From an uncultured Candidatus Peribacteria bacterium (GTDB lineage Bacteria; Patescibacteriota; Gracilibacteria; Peribacterales; Peribacteraceae): a stretch of 64,000 nt of DNA. Below the pieces are notes generated by a model. That model did not search any database, was not told the origin of the DNA, and worked only from the letters and a program-made list of their open reading frames with translations. Location of the stretch: the NCBI GenBank assembly GCA_964640945.1, contig CAZXIV010000002.1:368-64367 (forward strand). Reading direction: 5' to 3'. Of the stretch, positions 8,495-16,749 are shown one piece after another. Both the position numbers and the translations under genes were made by a program. Within the stretch, counting starts at the first letter, position 1; each line of letters opens with the position of its first letter.

Positions 8495-10093
8495 ATGGCG
8501 ACCGCCATGACATTTCGTAGTCGTAAGGTGAGCCAGGAGAAGTCGGCCGTCGCCAAAGCCGCCGGCCAAGCGGCGTCCGAAGCCAAGAAAAAACTGGGCT
8601 CGTTTGTGCAAAAAACCCTCCCCCAGGCCCCCGTACCCGTCGCCGTCGATGGCGGCAAAAGCGCTGCCAAGAGTGAACGCCGCGTGCGCTGCCTGAAGTG
8701 CGTACTCACCATCCTGTTGGCCGTGCTGTGCATCGGCATCGTCCTCAATCTGGCCCTCGAGGGCATCTTTGGCCTGCGCACGCTCAGCCTCCAATCGGTG
8801 ATGTCGACCGTCGGCACGCCGCCCCCGGTGGATGCCTACGGCCACACGAACATGTTATTGCTCGGTGTGGGCGATAAAGACCATGACGGCGTCGACCTGA
8901 CCGACACTATTATGGTGGTGAGCCTAGACCCCAAGGACACGAAGACACTGGCCATGTTCTCTATTCCCCGCGACTTGTGGATCTCGAATGTGGACCACGT
9001 GGCCGATGGCCGCATCAACAGTCTCTTCCGCGACATTCAATCGTATAACCGCCGGGCCAATCCCGACCTGGAGGACCACGAGCTGGTGAAGCTAGCAATG
9101 GTCGGCACGGCCGAAGAGATTGGGCGGCGTATGGGCATTGAGATCCACGGGGTGATCAAGGCGGACTTCACCGGCTTCGTTGAAGCCGTCGACACACTGG
9201 GCGGCGTGGAGGTGGATGTGCCCGAAGATATCATCGACCTGCAGTACCCCGGCCCCCGGCCCGACACCTACGATCCGTTCCGCATCTCCAAAGGTCCGCA
9301 GCACTTAGACGGCGAAACGGCGCTCAAATACGCCCGTAGCCGCCATACCAGCAGCGATTTTGGCCGCAGCGCCCGCCAGCAGCAGATCATCGCCAGCTTG
9401 GGCCAAAAGGTGCGCGACCAGGGTGTCCTCAAAAATCCTGGCACCATCCTGACGCTCCTCAAAATCGCCGGCGAGCACGTGAGTATGACCATGAGCTCAA
9501 GCGAGCTGATCGGACTGGCCAACGTGGCCCTCAAGCTTGATCTTCGCCGCCCCTTCACCATCCAACTCTCGGATAACGACCAGACGGCCGGTGGTTTCCT
9601 CTATCCCCCGCCCCGCGACCAATTCGGCGGCGCGTCGGTGCTCCTGCCCGAAGGCGGCCGCGACGGCTGGCAGCAGATCCAAGACCTGGTCGCCCTGACG
9701 GTTCACCAGCGCCTCCTGGCCCGCCCCCACCAGATCATCGTCGAGAACGCTGGCGCTCGCTCGGGCTTAGGACGCTCGCTCGGCTTTGAGCTCATCCGCT
9801 TTGGCTTCAACGTCACGGATATCCGTAACCGTCCCAAGACTGCCGACGGCAAGAATGATGATATCCCGCACTCCCAAGTGAAGACCGACCCGACCGATCC
9901 CATCGGCACCTTCCTCGCCGGGCTGATGTCACTCCCCGTTCTGCCACTCCCCACGGGTAGCGGCAGCGGCGCCGTGCTCAGCGACGATCGCTCCTCCGCG
10001 CCCGTCGAACCCCCCGCCCCTCTTACCCAGGTGATCCTCGGGGAAGACTACAAGTTTGTGCCAATCTCGGACCTCCTCCACCTCAAGCCTTGA
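8495..10093 (+). CDS. LytR-CpsA-Psr (LCP) family protein
   Basis: 532 aa. N-terminal TM anchor, 'NMLLLGVGD...DTIMVVSLDP', 'SIPRDLW', 'LDGETALKYARSRH...SDFGRSARQQQI' and a C-terminal LytR_C-like region. Confidence 0.85.
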   Translation: MATAMTFRSRKVSQEKSAVAKAAGQAASEAKKKLGSFVQKTLPQAPVPVAVDGGKSAAKSERRVRCLKCVLTILLAVLCIGIVLNLALEGIFGLRTLSLQSVMSTVGTPPPVDAYGHTNMLLLGVGDKDHDGVDLTDTIMVVSLDPKDTKTLAMFSIPRDLWISNVDHVADGRINSLFRDIQSYNRRANPDLEDHELVKLAMVGTAEEIGRRMGIEIHGVIKADFTGFVEAVDTLGGVEVDVPEDIIDLQYPGPRPDTYDPFRISKGPQHLDGETALKYARSRHTSSDFGRSARQQQIIASLGQKVRDQGVLKNPGTILTLLKIAGEHVSMTMSSSELIGLANVALKLDLRRPFTIQLSDNDQTAGGFLYPPPRDQFGGASVLLPEGGRDGWQQIQDLVALTVHQRLLARPHQIIVENAGARSGLGRSLGFELIRFGFNVTDIRNRPKTADGKNDDIPHSQVKTDPTDPIGTFLAGLMSLPVLPLPTGSGSGAVLSDDRSSAPVEPPAPLTQVILGEDYKFVPISDLLHLKP

Positions 10094-10992
10094 CCCCCCG
10101 CGAGATCGTCGCCGAAGCCTGGGCCATCGCCAAACGCGAGCGGAAGCTCTGGCAATGGGGCTTTTTGGCCTCGTTTTTCGCCATCATGCTCAGCGTGAAA
10201 TTCTTAAGCTTCCAGACGTACATCTTTTACGAGTACTTCTTCGGCGGGAACGAAGCCGGTATGTTCGACATGGAGCTCTGGCTCATCAACAACACCCCTC
10301 AGTGGTTCTGGGTGAGCACGTTCATCATCTTCATTGTGATGCTCATCATCGAGTTTTTTATGCCCCACTTCACCGAGGGGGCCATCATCGGCCTAACGGT
10401 GAAGGCCCACCGCGGCGAGCCGCTCGAAGGCGGCCTGGTGCTGGGCCTGTATAACTTCTTCCCGCTCTTCGCTCTTCATGAATTCTTCATCCTCGCCAGC
10501 TGGAACCTGGTGATTTCGGCGATATCATTGACCCTCCGTTACCTGCCGGAAAGCCTGCACGGCATCATTATACCCACAGTCATCTTCCTCTTCGTCTTTA
10601 GCAATTTCTTCAGCTTCCTGACGAGCTTCGCCCCCGAAGGCTGCGTCATTAAGAAAATGGGGCCGATCGAGAGCGCCATGCGCAGTTATAAGCTGATTGT
10701 CAGTCACGTCAGCCACGTTGTTTTCTTGATGCTGCTGCTCTTCGTTATCACCATCCGTATCCTCATCAACACCGTTATCGTCTTCCTCATTCCCGCCGCG
10801 GTGGTGGGCATCGGTCTCTTGCTGACGTACGTCTTCTCACCCTTCGTAAGCTACCTGATTGGCGCCGGCATCGGCCTGCTGCTCATCGGCGTGGCCAGCT
10901 ACTCGCTCGCCTACCTGCACGTTTTCCGACGCGCTGTCTGGACACTCACTTTCTTAGAGCTCGACGGACGCAAGGATTTGGATGAGCTATAA
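10090..10992 (+). CDS. polytopic membrane protein, hypothetical
   Basis: 300 aa with several hydrophobic helices. The TTG start overlaps the LCP stop by 4 nt. No recognisable family. Confidence 0.5.
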   Translation: MTPREIVAEAWAIAKRERKLWQWGFLASFFAIMLSVKFLSFQTYIFYEYFFGGNEAGMFDMELWLINNTPQWFWVSTFIIFIVMLIIEFFMPHFTEGAIIGLTVKAHRGEPLEGGLVLGLYNFFPLFALHEFFILASWNLVISAISLTLRYLPESLHGIIIPTVIFLFVFSNFFSFLTSFAPEGCVIKKMGPIESAMRSYKLIVSHVSHVVFLMLLLFVITIRILINTVIVFLIPAAVVGIGLLLTYVFSPFVSYLIGAGIGLLLIGVASYSLAYLHVFRRAVWTLTFLELDGRKDLDEL

Positions 10993-11034
10993 GCCTACCG
11001 GCACGGTTCTACCGGACCTCAGAACGCGATCTGT

Positions 11035-11063
11035 TTGACAGTGGACGTTCGTGCACCTAGGAT
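11035..11063 (+). promoter_or_regulatory. lexA promoter TTGACA-N17-TAGGAT
   Basis: Hexamers at 11035-11040 and 11058-11063. The spacer is filled by the palindrome listed next. Confidence 0.55.
11041..11056. promoter_or_regulatory. candidate LexA operator GTGGACGTTCGTGCAC
   Basis: Imperfect 16-bp palindrome between -35 and -10 of lexA. A near-identical perfect-arm copy, GTGGACCTTCGTCCAC, lies at 21424-21439 upstream of rmuC/pcrA. Confidence 0.5.
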
Positions 11064-11089
11064 GGTGGACGACTGTTCCCCTGTCACCC

Positions 11090-11707
11090 ATGACGCTCAC
11101 ACCCCACCAGCGCACGGCCCTCAATTACATCCGTGAGTTCCAGCGCAAGCGCGGCTACTCGCCGTCACTTGCCGACCTGGCCGTGGCCTTCGGTGTCCGG
11201 AGCAAGAACGCTATCGCCAAGGTGGTGAATGTGCTCGTGAACCAGGGCTTTATCGAAAAGGATCCCAAAGGGCGTATCAAAATTATGGATACCCCGCCGG
11301 AGAACAATGCGAGCGAATCGGTGGGTGGCTTCACGCTCCCCCTTTTCGGACCCATCGCCGCTGGTTACGCAGCCCCAGTCGAGGAGCAGGCCGAGGAACT
11401 CGTTTCCATTCAGGATTACATTATCGGCGGCAAAGGAGCCAAGATCTTCCTCCTGCGCGTGAAGGGCGAAAGCATGATCGACGCCGGCATCCAAGAGGGT
11501 GACCTGGTGGTGGTGGAACGCGGCAAAGAGCCCCGCGTGAACGACATCGTGGTAGGCGTGCTCGACGGCGAATACACCTTGAAGCGCCTCCGCAAAGATA
11601 AGGGCAAGTTCTACCTGCAAGCCGAGAACCCCAAATTTCCCGACATGTATGCCGTGGATGAGTTGCAGACCGCGGGCGTGGTGAAGGGGGTGATTAGAAA
11701 GTATTAA
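11090..11707 (+). CDS. lexA: LexA repressor
   Basis: Winged-helix N-terminus ('LTPHQRTALNYIREFQRKRGYSPSLADLA'), cleavage-site region 'GPIAAGYA' and S24 peptidase 'VKGESMIDAGIQEGDLVVV...YTLKRL'. Start taken at ATG 11090 inside track ORF 11051..11707. Confidence 0.9.
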   Translation: MTLTPHQRTALNYIREFQRKRGYSPSLADLAVAFGVRSKNAIAKVVNVLVNQGFIEKDPKGRIKIMDTPPENNASESVGGFTLPLFGPIAAGYAAPVEEQAEELVSIQDYIIGGKGAKIFLLRVKGESMIDAGIQEGDLVVVERGKEPRVNDIVVGVLDGEYTLKRLRKDKGKFYLQAENPKFPDMYAVDELQTAGVVKGVIRKY

Positions 11708-11729
11708 GGGATGAGTATTAAGTATTATG
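11702..11729. repeat. left heptamer array (TATTAAG-like x4), inverted relative to 12088-12115
   Basis: TATTAAG|GGATGAG|TATTAAG|TATTATG. Overlaps the lexA stop and the start codon of the following gene. Confidence 0.7.
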
Positions 11730-12092
11730 GGTGCTATTCAATCCTTCACAGGCCTTATCGCCTGGCAGGAAGCCCACAAACTCGTACTCTTGGTTTATCG
11801 AGTAACTCAGACCTTTCCCAAGGAAGAATCCTTTGGTCTCACCAATCAATTGCGCAGAGCCGCAGTATCTATCTCATCAAATATTGCCGAAGGATTTAGT
11901 AGAAAATCGGCCAAGGAAAAATCTCAATTCTATCGGATGGCATTAGGCTCCTTAACAGAAGTGCAGAACCAGATCCTTATTAGTAGAGACATTCAATATG
12001 TAGCGAAGAAGGAATTTGATGACATCGCCCAGCAAACAGTCATCGTGAGTAAATTGATTAATGGACTGATCAAGTCGGCCAAAAACCCTTAA
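11727..12092 (+). CDS. four-helix-bundle protein (23S rRNA intervening-sequence protein family)
   Basis: 121 aa. 'LIAWQEAHKLVLLVYRVTQTFPKEE..GLTNQLRRAAVSISSNIAEGFSR......FYRMALGSLTEVQNQILIS' matches the family signature. Markedly lower GC than the flanks. Confidence 0.85.
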   Translation: MGAIQSFTGLIAWQEAHKLVLLVYRVTQTFPKEESFGLTNQLRRAAVSISSNIAEGFSRKSAKEKSQFYRMALGSLTEVQNQILISRDIQYVAKKEFDDIAQQTVIVSKLINGLIKSAKNP

Positions 12093-12115
12093 TACTTAAT
12101 ACCTAATACTGAATA
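12088..12115. repeat. right heptamer array CTTAATA|CTTAATA|CCTAATA|CTGAATA
   Basis: Four tandem 7-mers. 12090-12102 is the perfect reverse complement of 11715-11727 (13 bp). Confidence 0.75.
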
Positions 12116-12119
12116 CCCC

Positions 12120-13292
12120 ATGATCGCCCACCTCGATGCCGACTCTTTCTTCGCGTCCGTCCTTGTCCGCAAGGACCCTCGACTCCAAGGCAAACCACTC
12201 CTCGCCCTGGGGATGGGTGGCAGTTGTGTGATTGCAGCGACGTATGAGGCCAAAGCCTTTGGTGTGAAGACCGGCATGCGCCTGATGGAGGCCCGTAAGC
12301 TCGTTCCTGGGGCCATAGAGCTGCCCTGTGACTTCGCGGAGACCGCAGTGGCTTCCCGCCAGATTGAATCGATTGTGGAGGCGTCCTGCCCCATCTTCGA
12401 GCAGATGTCGGTGGATGAGTGGTACATGGACCTCCGGAGCTGCATCGGCGGCGACCCGAGCCATCCCCAAGACTGGGCGACTGCTCTGCGCGACCGCGTG
12501 AAGCGCGAGACCGCCCTCTCGGTTTCGGTGGGGGTCGGTCCAACGAAGCTCCTGGCCAAGATGGCGGGCGAGTACCGCAAGCCCGCGGGCGTGACCGTCA
12601 TCGATGCCCAGGTGGATCTGGCGCTCGAGCCTTTTTTACGCGATCGGCCGGCCGCTGCCATCCCCGGTATCGGCCGCAAGCGCGTCCAAGAAACGGACAG
12701 TCGCGGCTGGAAGACCGCCTGGGATTTCTCGCAGGCTGATCCCCTGCTGGTGCAGCAACTATTCGGACGAGGCGGCCTGGATCTGCGCGCCGAGCTGCAG
12801 GGCGAGTCCGTCTCGGCCGTGACCACCGAATCGGGACCGCCGAAGTCCATCCAGCGCGCCCGGAGTTTCCGCAGCACCAGCGACCGCGACGCCATTTGGG
12901 CAAGCATCTTGGATCACTTGGCCTACACCGTTTTAAAGATGCGCCGCCAGGAATTAGCCTGCCGCGGTGTCACCGTCTGGCTCCGCAACAGCGACTACCG
13001 CGGCGAGGGCGACGCACAGAGCTTCCCCCAAGCGCTCACGAATGAAACCCAGCTCCTGCCCGCGATCCGCCAGGGCTTCGACCGGCTCTACCGGCCGGGC
13101 CAGCGCTACACACAGACCGGCCTCAGCCTCTGGCGCCTGGGCGCCATTGGCGGGCAGCAGTTCTCACTCTTCACGCCGCCGGAGACACTGATGAAAAACG
13201 ATGATCTCCAAAAGGCTGTCGATGACCTGCGCGAACGCTACGGCAAAGACATTGTGAAGCGAGGGTCGGCGCTGACCAGATCTCAGCATTGA
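12120..13292 (+). CDS. dinB: Y-family (translesion) DNA polymerase, DinB/UmuC-like
   Basis: 390 aa. 'IAHLDADSFFASV' catalytic start, 'AATYEAKAFGVKTGM', 'SVDEWYMDL' and 'SVGVGPTKLLAKMA'. Lies downstream of lexA. Confidence 0.85.
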   Translation: MIAHLDADSFFASVLVRKDPRLQGKPLLALGMGGSCVIAATYEAKAFGVKTGMRLMEARKLVPGAIELPCDFAETAVASRQIESIVEASCPIFEQMSVDEWYMDLRSCIGGDPSHPQDWATALRDRVKRETALSVSVGVGPTKLLAKMAGEYRKPAGVTVIDAQVDLALEPFLRDRPAAAIPGIGRKRVQETDSRGWKTAWDFSQADPLLVQQLFGRGGLDLRAELQGESVSAVTTESGPPKSIQRARSFRSTSDRDAIWASILDHLAYTVLKMRRQELACRGVTVWLRNSDYRGEGDAQSFPQALTNETQLLPAIRQGFDRLYRPGQRYTQTGLSLWRLGAIGGQQFSLFTPPETLMKNDDLQKAVDDLRERYGKDIVKRGSALTRSQH

Positions 13293-13311
13293 GGAGCTGT
13301 ATAATAACGTC

Positions 13312-13869
13312 ATGTTCACCGTGTCGCGCAGGCTCCCGCCTGTCACCAAAGCCGACTTCTTGAAGGGGGCGGATGATCATACGTGTGCACTAGTGGAGAC
13401 AATGCTCGCCATCAGCGCCGCCGAGCCAAAGCGCCTCATTCTCGTCACCTCCGGATTTGTGCCCGATCTCTGTTTGGGCCACATCCACCGACCGCATCAC
13501 GATCTCGATCTTCTTATCGCCGCCGACGATGTCCCATTTTTTCGGACCAAGTTGGAGCAAGAGCAGTGGACCCTGAGTCAGTTCCGCAGCAAAAATCCTC
13601 TGAACACATTCAAGGCGACGAAGGCCGGCCAAGAGGTGGATATCGGCGGCATCGCCGTGACGGCATCAGAGGTCTACGACGAAACCGACGGATCGGGGCA
13701 GAAATATATCTGGCCAGTCCAAGCCCATGAATTGATCTTCTCCCGTCAGATCGATGACATCGATGTTCGCTTCGTCTGCCCAAAAGCGATCCTCTTTTTT
13801 AAAACAGAAAACACTCGTCAGGACGAAAGGGATGAAGCTGATCGTACGATCCTGGCGCGATTCATGTAA
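13312..13869 (+). CDS. nucleotidyltransferase-fold protein (ANT(2'')/Lnu-like family)
   Basis: 185 aa. 'SGFVPDLCLGHIHRPHHDLDLLI' resembles the GG..D..LG...R.H.DiDl motif of aminoglycoside/lincosamide nucleotidyltransferase-type enzymes. TATAAT lies 6 nt upstream of the ATG. Confidence 0.45.
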   Translation: MFTVSRRLPPVTKADFLKGADDHTCALVETMLAISAAEPKRLILVTSGFVPDLCLGHIHRPHHDLDLLIAADDVPFFRTKLEQEQWTLSQFRSKNPLNTFKATKAGQEVDIGGIAVTASEVYDETDGSGQKYIWPVQAHELIFSRQIDDIDVRFVCPKAILFFKTENTRQDERDEADRTILARFM

Positions 13870-13894
13870 AAAACCCAGGCGAACGACGCCTGGG
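13868..13894 (-). terminator. rho-independent terminator (minus-strand sense) ending the valS / small-ORF unit
   Basis: CCCAGGCG-AACGA-CGCCTGGG. The plus-strand A-run 13868-13873 gives a U-tract on the minus strand. Confidence 0.7.
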
Positions 13895-13903
13895 GGTGCA
13901 CTA

Positions 13904-14032
13904 CTAGAAGCAGTACTTCCAGATGAGCCAGCCGATTCCGACGCAGGCTCCTTCGATGATGGCGGCCCAGCAGAGGCCAATACACAGACCAACTGAGCAG
14001 TTGGTTTGTGAGGGGACAGGAACACGAGACAC
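13904..14032 (-). CDS. small hydrophobic Cys-rich peptide, 42 aa (below ORF-track cutoff)
   Basis: GTG 14032 is preceded by AAGGAGGTGA (14045-14036, 3-nt gap). Translation is MSRVPVPSQTNCSVGLCIGLCWAAIIEGACVGIGWLIWKYCF, with a double TAG stop and then the terminator. It begins 18 nt after the valS stop. Confidence 0.45.
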   Translation of the reverse strand: MSRVPVPSQTNCSVGLCIGLCWAAIIEGACVGIGWLIWKYCF

Positions 14033-14049
14033 GGGTCACCTCCTTTTGC

Positions 14050-16749
14050 TCAGTGCCCCAGATTCAAGAGCGTCACTTCGATCTTCGCAAGCTTTTCCTG
14101 CATCTCCGCAAGCTTCTGTTTCTCAAAATTCACCACCTTCTCGGGTGCTTTGGACACAAATGTCTCATCCTTCAGCTTAATCTCAGAAGACGCGATGCCC
14201 TTCTGGAGAAGCTCCTTCTCTTTGCCGAGCGCGACTCGTTCTTTCTCCACGTCAATGAGACCCTCGAGCGAGAGATAAACCTCGATGTCCGTGAGGAACT
14301 CGCTCACGGTCTGGCCGCTCGGCGCCTTGGGCGTAAAGCTCAGCGAGGCCACCTTGGCCAAGCGCTTGATCTGGGCCTGTTGCCCCTCGAGGAGCGCGCT
14401 GTGCTTGGCGCTCACAATCGTCACGGTCACTTCCTTGGTGGGCTCCACGCTCTGAGCGGTGCGCAGGCGGCGGATGGCAGTGATCACATCAATGAGATGC
14501 TGGAGGTCGGCGTGCTCCTGGGCATACCGCGAGGCGTCGGCCTCCGGCCACGAGGCGGCGATAAGGGCACCAGCCTTGGCGGGCTTCACTTCTTCCCACA
14601 GACGCTCGGTGATGAAGGGGCAGAACGGGTGGAGCAACACGAGCAGCGTGCGCAGTGTGCCCACGAGTAACGCTGGATTGCTCTCACCCTTCGACAGCTC
14701 CAGATACCAGTCGCAGAACTCGTTCCACGTGAAGGAATAGAGGCGATCGCCGGCGTCGCTGAGGCGGTAGATTTGAAGATGATCAGTGACTTCTGTGATC
14801 ACCGTATTTGTGGCTTCAATAAGCCACTTATCTGCCAGACTCTTGGCTTCATGATCAGCCTCGGTGTGCGGGTCAAAGCCTGCTTTTTCACACTCCATGA
14901 GTACGAAGCGCGAGGCGTTCCAGAGCTTGTTCACAAAGTTGCGATAACCAGCAATTTTTTCTTCCGAGAGTTTGCTGTCAGCACCCGCACTCTGGCCGAC
15001 GATCATAGAAAGGCGCAGCGCGTCGGCGCCGTACTTGGGGATGATATCGAGCGGGTCGATCATTGTCTTAGGATCGCTCTTGCTCATCTTTTTTCCTTCC
15101 TTGGTACGCACCAAGCCGTGGAAGTACACCGTCTTGAACGGCACCTGTCCGGTGGCGTAGGTCGTCATGAGGATCATGCGCGCCACCCAGAAGAAGATAA
15201 GGTCGTAGCCCGTCTCCATCACGTTCGTGGGGTGGAACTTCTGGAAATCAGGACTCTGGGCGAGCATGTCCTTGAGGCTCAACTCGTAGTCGCGCGTCAG
15301 CTTCGGGTCGATGAGCGTGCTCCAGGTCCAGAGCGCGGACGAGAACCAGGTGTCGAGCGTGTCGGAATCTTGGACGACCGGCGAGCCGCAGAGCTCATGT
15401 TTGGTGATAGGCTCGGCGCCCACGGTGCACCAGTCGAGCGGTGTGCCGTCCTCGTTTTTGCACTTGGTGCAGTAGAACACGGGCACACGGTGGCCCCACC
15501 AGATCTGGCGAGAAACACACCAATCGCGCAGGTTATCAATCCAGGAGAAGTATGTCTTCTCGAAGCGATCCGGGATGATCTTGATGTCACCGTGGTGGAC
15601 GACGTCGTGCATCACTTCCTTCAGACTCATGCGCTGGCCCTTCCACTCGACGACGGGCTTTTTCACGTCCACGAACCACTGCAGCTTGATCTGCGGCTCG
15701 ATGGTGCCGCCACCGCGCGAGTTGGTCGCCTTGTTGTGCACATAGTTCTCGTCCACTTTTACGAGCAGGCCCTTCTCTTTCAGTTTCTCCACCACTGCCG
15801 GCCGAGCTTTCTCAATGTGCATACCTGCGAACTCTCCCGCCATCGGCAGGAGTTTGCCGTCGAAATCGATCACCTGCTCCTTCTCTAGACCGTGGCGCTC
15901 GGCCATCTCGAAGTCGACGGCGTCGTGCCAGGGGGTGATGGTCATGCAACCCGTGCCGAAAGCCGGATCGACGGCGGTATCTTTGAGAACCGTCGCGCGG
16001 ATGGGGCCGTTGATCCATTCCAACTCGAGCGTCTGGCCGACCTGGTACTGCTTGAAGCGTTCGTCGTCGGGGTGCACCACCACGTACTTATCGCCGAACT
16101 TCGTCTCCGGACGCGAGGTGGAGATCTGGAAAGGACCGTACTGGAAGGTGTAAAACGGCGCCGTCTCTTCTTTCCACTCGATCTCATCATCCGACACGGT
16201 CGTCTGGAGCTTCGGGTCCCAGTTCACAATGCGATGGCCGCGGTAGATGAGGCCGTCCTCTTTCATCTGGGCGAAGACCTCGTTCACTAAACGATTCAGC
16301 GACGGCTCGAAGGTGTAGCGCTCGCGGCTCCAGTCGCACGAGCTGCCCATCTTGCGCACTTGGCCGCGAATGGTCGATTTGCTCTGCTCCACGAATTTAG
16401 CGATCTCGGCCACGAGCTTGTCGCGTCCGAGCTCTTTGCGCGGATCCTTCAGGCCGCCTTCCTTCAACTGCTTGATGACGAGGTTTTCGGTGGCGATGGC
16501 AGCATGGTCCGTGCCGGGCACCCAGAGCGCCTCTTTGCCGCGCATGCGGTTGAAGCGCGTGAGGATGTCTTCGATCGCAAGCATGACCGCGTGCCCTAGG
16601 TGCAGGCTGCCCGTGGCGTTGGGCGGCGGCATGCTGATCGTGAAGGGCTCTTTCTTACTCTTGGCGTCAGCCTTGAAGGCACCGCTCTCCTCCCACATCG
16701 CATAGATGCGGTCTTCGGTCGCCTGCGGATCGTAGGCCTTATCGAGCAC
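14050..16749 (-). CDS. valS: valine--tRNA ligase
   Basis: 899 aa. 'PPPNATGSLHLGHA' (HIGH), 'KMSKS', an editing domain and a C-terminal coiled coil. GTG start. Confidence 0.95.
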   Translation of the reverse strand: MLDKAYDPQATEDRIYAMWEESGAFKADAKSKKEPFTISMPPPNATGSLHLGHAVMLAIEDILTRFNRMRGKEALWVPGTDHAAIATENLVIKQLKEGGLKDPRKELGRDKLVAEIAKFVEQSKSTIRGQVRKMGSSCDWSRERYTFEPSLNRLVNEVFAQMKEDGLIYRGHRIVNWDPKLQTTVSDDEIEWKEETAPFYTFQYGPFQISTSRPETKFGDKYVVVHPDDERFKQYQVGQTLELEWINGPIRATVLKDTAVDPAFGTGCMTITPWHDAVDFEMAERHGLEKEQVIDFDGKLLPMAGEFAGMHIEKARPAVVEKLKEKGLLVKVDENYVHNKATNSRGGGTIEPQIKLQWFVDVKKPVVEWKGQRMSLKEVMHDVVHHGDIKIIPDRFEKTYFSWIDNLRDWCVSRQIWWGHRVPVFYCTKCKNEDGTPLDWCTVGAEPITKHELCGSPVVQDSDTLDTWFSSALWTWSTLIDPKLTRDYELSLKDMLAQSPDFQKFHPTNVMETGYDLIFFWVARMILMTTYATGQVPFKTVYFHGLVRTKEGKKMSKSDPKTMIDPLDIIPKYGADALRLSMIVGQSAGADSKLSEEKIAGYRNFVNKLWNASRFVLMECEKAGFDPHTEADHEAKSLADKWLIEATNTVITEVTDHLQIYRLSDAGDRLYSFTWNEFCDWYLELSKGESNPALLVGTLRTLLVLLHPFCPFITERLWEEVKPAKAGALIAASWPEADASRYAQEHADLQHLIDVITAIRRLRTAQSVEPTKEVTVTIVSAKHSALLEGQQAQIKRLAKVASLSFTPKAPSGQTVSEFLTDIEVYLSLEGLIDVEKERVALGKEKELLQKGIASSEIKLKDETFVSKAPEKVVNFEKQKLAEMQEKLAKIEVTLLNLGH

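What the first reader, a model, noticed from the sequence alone, without database searches (positions are those of the whole stretch)
11701..12119. Low-GC four-helix-bundle (23S-IVS protein family) gene bracketed by inverted heptamer arrays between lexA and the translesion polymerase
The 121-aa gene belongs to the family first seen inside 23S rRNA intervening sequences. Here it sits in a visibly AT-richer block between lexA and the Y-family polymerase.

The flanks are symmetric:
- Left: TATTAAG|GGATGAG|TATTAAG|TATTATG (11702-11729).
- Right: CTTAATA|CTTAATA|CCTAATA|CTGAATA (12088-12115).
- 11715-11727 (GTATTAAGTATTA) is perfectly complementary to 12090-12102.

The start codon lies in the last left heptamer and the stop codon in the first right heptamer. 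In an RNA the arms would form a long stem enclosing the whole ORF, as in rRNA IVS elements that RNase III excises.

This looks like an IVS-like cassette that has colonised an mRNA context. If the stem is processed it could uncouple lexA and polymerase expression.
Basis: partly seen in the sequence, partly recalled or inferred. Interest (0 to 1): 0.65.

Follow-up and report, generated by a model that had tools for sequence, protein, structure and literature searches.

The report
IVS-type gene cassette splitting lexA-dinB
A small AT-rich gene of the "23S rRNA intervening-sequence protein" family sits between the SOS repressor gene and an error-prone polymerase gene, bracketed by mirror-image runs of 7-base repeats; the same bracket surrounds this gene family in many bacteria, and some relatives have an empty site, so it behaves like an inserted cassette.

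Summary
Window 11727-12092 encodes a 121-aa TIGR02436/PF05635 four-helix-bundle protein. It lies between lexA and a Y-family polymerase gene, at 41% GC in a 61% GC window. It is bracketed by four-unit heptamer arrays in inverted orientation.

This is not a local oddity.
- In 77 of 81 homologous loci, period 7 is the dominant period on each flank.
- The 4-nt unit core matches between the two arms in 52 of 60 loci.
- The same bracket occurs in Cyanobacteria, Bacteroidota and Alphaproteobacteria. It is also published for the genuine Coxiella 23S IVS, where RNase III cuts at the first heptamer.

Relatives of this organism show the lexA-dinB junction in several states: empty (7-12 nt), filled with the cassette, reduced to an ORF-less heptamer hairpin, or holding a RayT-like element.

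Best reading: an IVS-type, horizontally acquired cassette co-transcribed with the operon. Its arms form a stem that covers the cassette's own start and stop codons. RNase III cleavage and uncoupling of lexA from dinB are inferred, not shown.

None of the 80 nearest relatives lies in rRNA, so mRNA contexts are the norm for this subfamily. A rival reading is that the arrays are binding sites for the pentameric protein.

The parts
11035..11063 (+). Sigma-70-like promoter match (TTGACA-17-TAGGAT) upstream of lexA. It is the only + strand match in 9900-14100, and there is none inside the cassette.
   Evidence: This is a consensus match only: 2 were found against 1.7 expected, so it is weak evidence.
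11090..11707 (+). lexA (205 aa, start as called on identical contigs). Its last codons, AAG TAT TAA, form the first heptamer unit GTATTAA.
   Evidence: L001 gene call 3364-3981; sequence.
11699..11729 (+). Left (5') heptamer array of about 4 units, G-T-A-T-T-A-A type. The second unit is degenerate (GGATGAG). The array contains the lexA stop codon and the cassette ATG.
11727..12092 (+). 121-aa four-helix-bundle protein gene (TIGR02436 / PF05635, the S23p or '23S rRNA IVS protein' family). GC 0.43, GC3 0.46.
   Evidence: (PDB 2gsc, E 1.7e-22).
12088..12116 (+). Right (3') heptamer array of 4 units, TTAATAC type, the reverse complement of the left unit. It contains the cassette stop codon and ends 3 nt before the dinB ATG.
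11715..11731 (+). 5' strand of the predicted closing stem (13 bp perfect, a 1-nt bulge, then 4 bp). It pairs with 12086-12102 and covers the cassette AUG.
12086..12102 (+). 3' strand of the predicted closing stem. It covers the cassette UAA.
12120..13292 (+). Y-family (DinB/ImpB-type) DNA polymerase gene. In relatives with an empty site it starts 7-12 nt after the lexA stop codon.

Best explanation
Window 11699-12116 is an IVS-type gene cassette. It consists of a promoterless S23p/TIGR02436 four-helix-bundle ORF whose two ends are embedded in inverted arrays of about four tandem heptamers (unit G-W-A-K-N-W-N on the coding strand upstream, its complement downstream). It occupies what is, in some relatives, a 7-12 nt lexA-dinB intercistronic spacer. 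It came from a lower-GC source.

The cassette is transcribed as part of the lexA operon. In that RNA the two arrays pair into an imperfect stem of about 17-30 bp. The stem encloses the ORF and buries its AUG and UAA.

By analogy with the 23S rRNA IVS of Coxiella, where RNase III cuts at the first heptamer of the same kind of stem, the stem is most likely an RNase III substrate. Cleavage would cut the cassette out of the transcript without ligation and leave separate lexA and dinB RNAs. This would explain why such cassettes are tolerated exactly at intercistronic spacers and at rRNA helix tips.

Shown: the architecture, its family-wide conservation, the polymorphic site in relatives, the foreign composition, and the predicted pairing.
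Inferred: transcription through the cassette, RNase III cleavage, and any regulatory consequence for lexA or dinB.
For: Family and anatomy.

The bracket is conserved across the family:
- Period 7 is the best period in 77 of 81 left flanks and 77 of 81 right flanks, against 27 of 410 control segments.
- The arms share the same 4-nt core in 52 of 60 loci, against 17.6 expected and a maximum of 29 in 2000 shuffles.
- Own-arm duplex energy averages -32.5 kcal/mol, against -19.4 with another locus's arm (p 8e-13).
- At the orthologous lexA-dinB site the unit differs between species (GTATTAA, GTAGTAA, GGGGTTA, GAACGTA, GTATCTA, GTATGTC, GAATTAT), yet the arms stay complementary.

Insertion polymorphism at the lexA-dinB junction in relatives:
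- Empty: L095, L098, L100, L107, L108.
- Cassette-bearing: 12 loci.
- ORF-less heptamer hairpins: L102, L111.

Foreign composition:
- GC3 is 0.46 against 0.76-0.81 for the neighbours.
- The cassette gene has lower GC than its flanks in 79 of 80 loci.

Dependence on host transcription:
- No promoter or terminator match lies inside the cassette.
- Spacers to the neighbouring genes have medians of 40 and 32 nt, essentially just the arrays.
- Neighbours are co-oriented in 86.6% of pairs, against a 73.8% baseline (p 0.003).

Precedent: the Coxiella IVS carries 3-4 tandem heptamers (GACAGAT) directly upstream of the S23p ATG, within the inverted-repeat stem. The mapped RNase III 5' cut is at the first repeat (PMC4990558).

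Same bracket in other phyla: Nostoc, Picosynechococcus, Geminocystis, Riemerella, Azospirillum.
Against: - No transcript or cleavage data exist for this locus.
- The order of the variable unit positions 5-7 is not mirrored between the arms (0.716 observed, 0.718 with shuffled unit order, z -0.24). Left and right array lengths are uncorrelated (rho 0.06). Selection therefore seems to act on a shared unit rather than on an exact helix.
- The + strand RNA is not more stable than the - strand RNA (p 0.2), so an RNA-level structure cannot be told apart from a DNA-level one.
- The whole 436-nt fold is not exceptional (z -1.3).
- In Pseudanabaena the two arrays are direct, not inverted.
- The left array in this window is weak: its second unit is degenerate, and TRF reports 63% matches.
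- No RNase III signature was found in this 64-kb window, which says nothing about the rest of the genome.
Confidence: 0.5

Rival explanations
1. The heptamer arrays are repeated binding sites for the cassette's own protein. S23p proteins are homopentameric rings. One ring would read about 4-5 tandem heptamers in single-stranded RNA or DNA, much as TRAP reads its repeats. This would autoregulate the cassette gene, and the protein might also act on other heptamer arrays dispersed in the genome. This reading can coexist with the stem model, because binding would compete with hairpin formation.
For: - Arrays have 4-5 units in 54 of 76 left and 57 of 77 right arrays.
- PDB relatives 2gsc and 2rld each have 5 chains, and 2gsc is described as a homopentameric toroid (PMC4990558).
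- The unit core tracks protein distance: 0.374 for same-core pairs against 0.401 for different-core pairs, reached by 0 of 1000 permutations.
- Polarity is strict, with the purine-rich unit always upstream on the coding strand. A bare stem does not require this.
- The arms share a unit but not a mirrored order.
- Direct-orientation arrays occur in Pseudanabaena.
- 60 further heptamer arrays lie elsewhere in 452 kb of these loci. They resemble the cassette-flank unit of their own locus more than that of other loci (4.63 against 4.31 of 7, z 2.7).
- The related Avd protein works in a nucleoprotein complex (general knowledge; homology noted in PMC10053308).
Against: - No binding data exist.
- The correlation between core and protein could simply reflect co-inheritance of a cassette.
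- The 4-5 unit mode may reflect slippage dynamics.
- ORF-less hairpins persist without a linked protein gene.
- This window has no other heptamer array that such a protein could act on.
Confidence: 0.25
2. The arrays act at the DNA level, as the ends of a mobile element. They would be comparable to the inverted REPs that flank rayT in a REPtron, or to hairpin or cruciform recombination substrates. They would exist mainly to move or replace the cassette. Any RNA stem would be a by-product.
For: - Empty, filled and ORF-less states occur at one junction.
- Cassette proteins at this junction are not monophyletic in a neighbour-joining tree and do not track the host genes (Mantel r 0.03-0.19, not significant). 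This is compatible with repeated replacement.
- Duplex stability shows no strand asymmetry.
- The first left unit is supplied by the host lexA end (AAG TAT TAA), which suggests a preference for heptamer-like targets.
- The same junction holds a RayT-like gene with REP-like palindromes in L094 and L097, so it is a hotspot for small selfish elements.
Against: - The cassette encodes no recombinase, transposase or nuclease domain, only a 121-aa helical bundle.
- No target-site duplication is evident.
- The protein tree is star-like and poorly resolved.
- Co-orientation with host genes is higher than baseline, and the start and stop codons overlap the arrays. Both point to function at the transcript level.
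Confidence: 0.15
3. The gene is the Avd accessory protein of a diversity-generating retroelement.
For: - Weak similarity to Avd models: PF22296 at 27.3 bits, NF033474 at 24 bits, and PHROG 3206 'Avd protein of DGR' at E 2.6e-10.
Against: - Both curated cut-offs are missed (27.3 against 40; 24 against 80).
- No reverse transcriptase lies within 4 kb on either side. The neighbours are LytR, a membrane protein, LexA, an IMS polymerase, a 185-aa protein and ValRS.
- No template/variable repeat pair was found.
Confidence: 0.02
4. The gene is an ordinary resident gene, and the heptamers are chance or slippage-generated simple repeats with no role.
For: - Heptamer repeats are over-represented in many bacterial genomes (PMC4692102).
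- Such arrays also occur elsewhere in these genomes, including inside an ORF.
Against: - 77 of 81 loci have period-7 arrays on each side, against 6.6% of control segments.
- Inverted orientation and core concordance far exceed chance.
- The design is conserved across phyla.
- The site is polymorphic in relatives.
Confidence: 0.05

Closest known systems
ORF-containing 23S rRNA intervening sequences (IVS) of Coxiella burnetii and Leptospira (S23p ORF; Ralph & McClelland 1993; Warrier et al. 2016, PMC4990558)
   Same: - Same protein family (PF05635).
- The ORF is in sense orientation within a host transcript and has no promoter of its own.
- The ORF is bordered by complementary ends.
- In Coxiella, tandem heptamers lie directly upstream of the ATG, and RNase III cuts at the first one.
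- GC is lower than the host's, and horizontal acquisition is inferred.
   Different: - The host RNA here is an mRNA (an intercistronic spacer of the SOS operon), not helix 45 of 23S rRNA.
- The unit sequence differs (GTATTAA here, GACAGAT in Coxiella).
- Processing is not demonstrated here.
- In this clade none of 80 homologs is in rRNA.
- The protein here is strongly conserved (34 invariant columns among 23 sequences), whereas the Coxiella ORF appears to be decaying.
REPtrons: rayT (REP-associated tyrosine transposase) flanked by inverted REP sequences, with many orphan REPs or BIMEs elsewhere in the genome
   Same: - A small gene is bracketed by inverted copies of a short repeat.
- The same repeat also occurs without the gene, in intergenic spacers. 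Examples are the ORF-less inverted heptamer pairs in L102, L111 and L072, and the 70-75 convergent pairs per Xanthomonas genome reported in PMC4692102.
- A RayT-like element occupies this very junction in L094.
   Different: - The cassette protein has no HUH/Y1 catalytic domain.
- The repeats are tandem heptamer arrays, not single palindromes.
- No evidence exists that the protein mobilises the arrays.
Dispersed tandem heptamer repeats: cyanobacterial STRR, Xanthomonas GGGAATC and Nostoc GGGGATT (Rehm et al. 2015, PMC4692102), Beggiatoaceae TAACTGA (PMC4679880)
   Same: - Arrays are mostly about four units of 7 nt.
- They are intergenic and close to gene ends.
- They often occur in convergent (inverted) pairs.
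- Copy number varies.
- The Nostoc punctiforme cassette is flanked by CAGGAGT-type arrays.
   Different: - Those papers do not connect the repeats to S23p/TIGR02436 genes.
- The units are different and G-rich, and were interpreted as G-quadruplex or regulatory elements.
- The link to this cassette is an inference from 8 plasmid loci. It was not tested genome-wide.
Avd of diversity-generating retroelements
   Same: - Homologous four-helix-bundle fold.
- Pentameric.
- Acts with nucleic acid.
   Different: - No reverse transcriptase and no TR/VR pair.
- Scores fall below the Avd cut-offs.

Membership tests
TIGR02436 / PF05635 four-helix-bundle ('23S rRNA IVS protein', S23p) family | Sequence match above the curated cut-offs | tested here: met
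   PF05635 at 127.7 bits against a cut-off of 33.8. TIGR02436 at 123.6 bits against a cut-off of 24. PDB 2gsc at E 1.7e-22.
IVS-type element (as defined for 23S rRNA IVS) | Bordered by complementary sequences able to form a stem that encloses the element | tested here: met
   A 13-bp perfect stretch plus 4 bp forms the stem in the minimum-free-energy fold. The arms with a tetraloop fold at -25.5 kcal/mol, z -4.8. Across the family the own-arm duplex averages -32.5 kcal/mol against -19.4 with another locus's arm.
IVS-type element (as defined for 23S rRNA IVS) | Located within an rRNA gene (helix 9, 25 or 45 of 23S) | tested here: not met
   The cassette lies between lexA and dinB. The window holds no rRNA, and none of the 80 homologous loci does either.
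IVS-type element (as defined for 23S rRNA IVS) | Excised from the primary transcript by RNase III without re-ligation | not testable with these tools
   This needs transcript end mapping or an in-vitro cleavage assay. The only support is analogy to Coxiella (PMC4990558).
IVS-type element (as defined for 23S rRNA IVS) | Sporadic distribution, with empty sites in relatives | tested here: met
   Empty junctions of 7-12 nt occur in L095, L098, L100, L107 and L108. The cassette is present in 12 loci. ORF-less remnants occur in L102 and L111.
IVS-type element (as defined for 23S rRNA IVS) | Tandem heptamers at the 5' end, directly upstream of the S23p start codon (the Coxiella form) | tested here: met
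   Window 11699-11729. Seen in 77 of 81 homologous loci.
Diversity-generating retroelement (Avd) | Match to the Avd equivalog, plus an adjacent reverse transcriptase and a TR/VR pair | tested here: not met
   NF033474 scores 24 bits against a cut-off of 80. PF22296 scores 27.3 against 40. No RT family is recorded among genes within 4 kb on either side. No long direct repeat pair was found.
REPtron | A Y1/HUH transposase gene flanked by inverted REPs | tested here: not met
   The cassette protein has no transposase domain. Only the layout resembles a REPtron.
Known anti-phage defence systems (PADLOC) | Match to a defence-system protein model | tested here: not met
   No PADLOC hit at E <= 0.01.

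The most novel reading that the evidence does not exclude
S23p/TIGR02436 proteins may be the missing trans-acting partner of the dispersed tandem-heptamer arrays that have been described as orphan repeats in many bacteria: cyanobacterial STRR, Xanthomonas GGGAATC, and the arrays seen here throughout Patescibacteria loci.

In this reading, a pentameric ring reads about 4-5 heptamers. The gene sits between inverted copies of its own sites, as in a REPtron. ORF-less inverted arrays are its non-autonomous derivatives or its regulon. The 23S rRNA IVS would then be just one insertion context of this system.
Probability: 0.2. Interest if true: 0.85.

Novelty: new variant of a known kind. Interest (0 to 1): 0.62.

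Why it matters
Function of a large protein family. The S23p/four-helix-bundle family is very large; more than 7,900 hits passed E 0.001 in one capped search. It has had no known function since 1993. If its genes are, as a rule, bracketed by inverted tandem heptamers, three puzzles may be one system: the ORF-bearing rRNA IVS, the free-standing 'four helix bundle protein' genes, and the orphan heptamer repeats of several phyla. That gives concrete binding and cleavage experiments.

This locus. A structured, possibly RNase III-cleaved insert between the SOS repressor gene and a translesion polymerase gene would change their stoichiometry and coupling compared with relatives that have a 7-nt junction. 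That is a natural experiment in operon architecture.

Annotation. Heptamer arrays overlap the ends of the ORF. This explains the variable N- and C-terminal tails in this family.

Tried and rejected
1. A pre-existing hairpin formed by the lexA 3' coding end and the dinB 5' coding start, as an insertion target. The 50-nt, 70% complementary arms suggested it. Across 20 loci the z-scores range from -2.4 to +1.6 with no trend, so it was rejected. The stem consists of the arrays only.

2. In-register (mirrored) complementarity of the variable unit positions, as proof of a selected helix. No signal was found.

3. G-U asymmetry between + and - strand duplex energies, to separate RNA from DNA structure. 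The difference was not significant (p 0.2).

4. Any homolog lying in 23S rRNA within this clade. None was found in 80 loci.

5. A thematic link to SOS or repair neighbours. The downstream neighbours are diverse housekeeping genes: Pth, a RadA-like ATPase, NUDIX, an ABC ATPase, an epimerase, dCTP deaminase and PFOR.

6. A phage origin. There was no tblastn hit in 50,697 phage records.

7. A defence-system role. There was no PADLOC hit.

8. A DGR Avd role. Rejected.

9. An integron-cassette analogy. It was considered and dropped, for two reasons. Integron cassettes carry a single attC at one end (general knowledge). No integrase family appears among the neighbours within 4 kb.

10. Vertical inheritance against replacement of the cassette. 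The Mantel tests were underpowered: the host-host correlation itself is only r 0.34. This stays unresolved.

11. Literature searches for a published generalisation of 'PF05635 gene flanked by inverted heptamer arrays'. Only the Coxiella-specific description was found.
Full report
**1. The observation**

- lexA ends ...AAG TAT TAA at 11705-11707.
- The spacer to the next ATG (11727) reads as the units TATTAAG|GGATGAG|TATTAAG|TATTATG.
- The 121-aa ORF ends with TAA at 12090-12092, inside CTTAATA|CTTAATA|CCTAATA|CTGAATA.
- The polymerase ATG follows at 12120.

The 13-nt stretch 11715-11727 is perfectly complementary to 12090-12102. The motif occurs nowhere else in the 64 kb: all 5 matches lie in the two arrays, against 0.24 expected. 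TRF finds no other period-7 array of 4 or more copies in the window.

The ORF is PF05635 (E 2.7e-37) and TIGR02436 (123.6 bits). Its closest solved relative is the Xanthomonas XCC0516 structure 2gsc (E 1.7e-22). The flanking genes are LexA and an IMS-family (Y-family) polymerase.

The block is the only part of the window below 47% GC; the window mean is 61%. GC3 is 0.46 for the ORF against 0.76-0.81 for its neighbours.

The minimum-free-energy fold of 11690-12125 closes with the predicted stem, although the energy of the whole 436 nt is unremarkable (z -1.3). The arms alone, joined by a tetraloop, fold at -25.5 kcal/mol (z -4.8).

**2. The bracket is a property of the gene family, not of this locus**

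The nearest homologs are 60-76% identical, and all named ones come from Patescibacteria. I fetched 80 genomic loci for them and printed their flanks. Nearly every one shows tandem heptamers upstream and their reverse complement downstream.

- Period 7 is the best period in 77 of 81 left flanks and 77 of 81 right flanks, against 27 of 410 control segments from the same loci.
- The unit consensus on the coding strand is G-W-A-K-N-W-N.
- The modal 4-nt core (GAAT, GTAT, GTAG, GAAG and others) is the same on both sides in 52 of 60 loci. The expectation is 17.6, and the maximum in 2000 shuffles is 29.
- A locus's own arms pair at -32.5 kcal/mol on average. Pairing with another locus's right arm gives -19.4 (p 8e-13).
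- Arrays are typically 4-5 units long.
- The cassette gene has lower GC than its flanks in 79 of 80 loci.
- The upstream neighbour is on the same strand in 64 of 68 resolved cases, and the downstream neighbour in 58 of 71. The spacers have medians of 40 and 32 nt, so they are essentially just the arrays.
- Co-orientation with neighbours is 86.6%, against a baseline of 73.8% (p 0.003).
- None of the 80 loci lies in an rRNA gene.
- The downstream genes are unrelated housekeeping genes.

The design also holds outside Patescibacteria (plasmid-borne homologs).
- Nostoc punctiforme: CAGGAGT units.
- Picosynechococcus: GGAGATA units, between cas10 and cmr3.
- Geminocystis: AAGGGAA units.
- Riemerella: AGGTTTA units.
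- Azospirillum: GACAGAG/GACGGAT units.

All five have the complement on the far side of the gene. Pseudanabaena is an exception, with long direct arrays on both sides.

The genuine Coxiella 23S IVS has the same design. Three tandem GACAGAT units plus GACAGAA lie immediately upstream of the S23p ATG. Their copy number varies between strains. The RNase III 5' cut was mapped to the first repeat, within the inverted-repeat stem (PMC4990558).

**3. It behaves as an insertion**

A metagenome scan with the polymerase gave 23 related loci. Together with the genome loci, the lexA-dinB junction occurs in several states.
- Empty, with 7-12 nt between the lexA stop and the dinB ATG: L095, L098, L100, L107, L108.
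- Filled by the cassette: the window, L009, L014, L030, L031, L036, L096, L105, L106 and L113-115.
- Reduced to an 89-98 nt ORF-less pair of inverted heptamer arrays: L102 and L111. L111 folds at -29.1 kcal/mol, z -5.8.
- A 48-nt spacer of unclear origin: L101.
- An unrelated hairpin of about 130 nt: L099 and L109.
- A 205-aa RayT-like ORF with REP-like palindromes: L094 and L097 (NF047646 at 54.6 bits, below its cut-off of 80).

On a LexA+DinB tree, cassette-bearing loci are spread over the whole clade and the other states are nested within it. That fits an old presence with repeated loss. It also fits repeated gain.

At this one orthologous site the unit differs from species to species while the arms stay complementary. 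The cassette proteins at the site are not monophyletic in a poorly resolved neighbour-joining tree. Their distances do not track those of the host genes (Mantel r 0.03-0.19, not significant; the host-host correlation is r 0.34, p 0.03). I therefore cannot separate in-situ co-evolution of the arms from replacement by incoming cassettes. Persistently low GC3 favours turnover: for example 0.28 against 0.79 in L114, and 0.46 against 0.77 here.

**4. How it most likely works**

The cassette contains no promoter-like or terminator-like site. The only + strand promoter match in the region is upstream of lexA, at 11035-11063 (weak evidence). So the cassette is most simply read as co-transcribed with lexA and dinB.

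In that RNA the arms pair, and both the cassette's AUG and UAA lie inside the helix. The Coxiella precedent makes RNase III cleavage of this helix the most economical prediction. Excision without ligation is harmless only where RNA continuity is not needed. Those places are between cistrons and at rRNA helix tips, which is where these elements are found. This step is an inference. I give the whole chain 0.5.

Three results argue against a simple 'selected helix'.
- The order of the variable positions is not mirrored between the arms.
- Arm lengths are uncorrelated.
- There is no strand asymmetry in duplex stability.

Four further results make a protein-binding role for the arrays a serious rival or complement (0.25).
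- The polarity is strict.
- Arrays mostly have 4-5 units, and the protein family forms pentamers.
- The unit core co-varies with protein distance.
- 60 further heptamer arrays lie elsewhere in these loci, and they resemble the local cassette unit.

A purely DNA-level role in mobility remains possible (0.15). However, the cassette encodes no recombinase.

**5. Comparison with what is known, and novelty**

The protein family, the ORF-bearing rRNA IVS and its RNase III processing are all known. The Coxiella heptamers are published. I found no paper that generalises the inverted-heptamer bracket to free-standing family members. I also found none that links it to the orphan heptamer repeats of cyanobacteria or Xanthomonas (searches; papers read).

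The element fails one defining feature of an IVS, which is location in rRNA. It meets the structural features. I therefore file it as a new variant of a known kind: an IVS-type cassette resident in an mRNA, and one instance of a widespread pattern that appears not to have been described. It is not a DGR Avd, and it matches no known defence-system component.

**6. Verdict**

| Question | Verdict |
|---|---|
| Observation | Confirmed |
| Interest | 0.62 |

In the interpretation, the cassette nature and the IVS-like design are supported. The direction of 'colonisation' and the uniqueness of the locus are not. Processing is untested. The local gene is common and already annotated as a 'four helix bundle protein'. 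The family-wide architecture and the polymorphic SOS-operon junction are unexpected, and they can be tested directly.

Noticed in passing
L094 1878-2495 (also L097): In these relatives the same lexA-dinB junction holds a 205-aa ORF matching REP-associated tyrosine transposase (NF047646, E 1e-14, 54.6 bits, below the cut-off of 80). It is accompanied by two REP-like palindromes (GAGATCGACC(G/A)(C/G)(T/C)GGTCGATCTC). Heptamer-like remnants (GAAGTAT GAATCGT) follow the lexA stop. The junction looks like a hotspot for small selfish elements.
   Followed up: partly
L099 786-919 and L109 2372-2500: An insert of about 130 nt at the same junction carries an unrelated hairpin (CTTTGTCATGGT...ACCATGACAAAG) and no heptamers. 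Its nature is unknown.
   Followed up: no
L016 2523-2554: A GAATTAC array of about 4.5 units lies inside the coding region of a pyruvate:ferredoxin oxidoreductase alpha-like ORF. It is read in frame as ...NYELRITNYE.... It has the same core as the arrays flanking the cassette 450 nt downstream. Heptamer arrays can therefore sit within ORFs.
   Followed up: partly
L013-L092 outside the cassette flanks (listed): Sixty further period-7 arrays lie in 452 kb of Patescibacteria loci, about 1 per 7.5 kb. Some form close inverted pairs without an ORF (L072 2243-2309, L049 5015-5156, L085 4836-4901). Some are very long (L042 4071-4168, 14 copies of CATAACG; L079 2790-2851; L084 1668-1729).
   Followed up: partly
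L117 (Picosynechococcus plasmid) and L121 (Pseudanabaena plasmid): Cyanobacterial family members are inserted, co-oriented, inside CRISPR-cas operons (between cas10 and cmr3; between cas6 and cas4). In Pseudanabaena the flanking arrays are direct rather than inverted and exceed 10 copies (GCTAAAA / GCCAAAA).
   Followed up: no
Alignment A1, C-terminal columns: The variable C-terminal tails of the family (...KTIIHNS...TFLIPNS...MIHDS) are encoded by the right-hand heptamer array (for example ATT ATT CAT AAT TCA TAA). Part of the protein's end is therefore repeat-derived. In L036 and L114 much of the right array lies inside the ORF.
   Followed up: partly
window 13312-13869: A 185-aa ORF lies 20 nt downstream of the polymerase gene on the same strand. 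It has a borderline match to Aminoglyc_resit (nucleotidyltransferase; 21.9 bits against a cut-off of 21) and no NCBIfam hit. It is replaced by a different, opposite-strand 243-aa gene in L009.
   Followed up: no
window 10090-10992: A 300-aa hydrophobic ORF lies upstream of lexA and has no Pfam or NCBIfam match. It is conserved in synteny (41-50% identity) across the Peribacteria-like relatives, downstream of a LytR_cpsA_psr gene.
   Followed up: no
Record titles of L016, L018, L020, L024 and others: Many MAGs carrying close homologs are titled 'uncultured Gammaproteobacteria' or 'Bdellovibrionales' (binchicken co-assemblies). Their cassette proteins nevertheless sit among Patescibacteria sequences. 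The taxonomic labels look doubtful.
   Followed up: no
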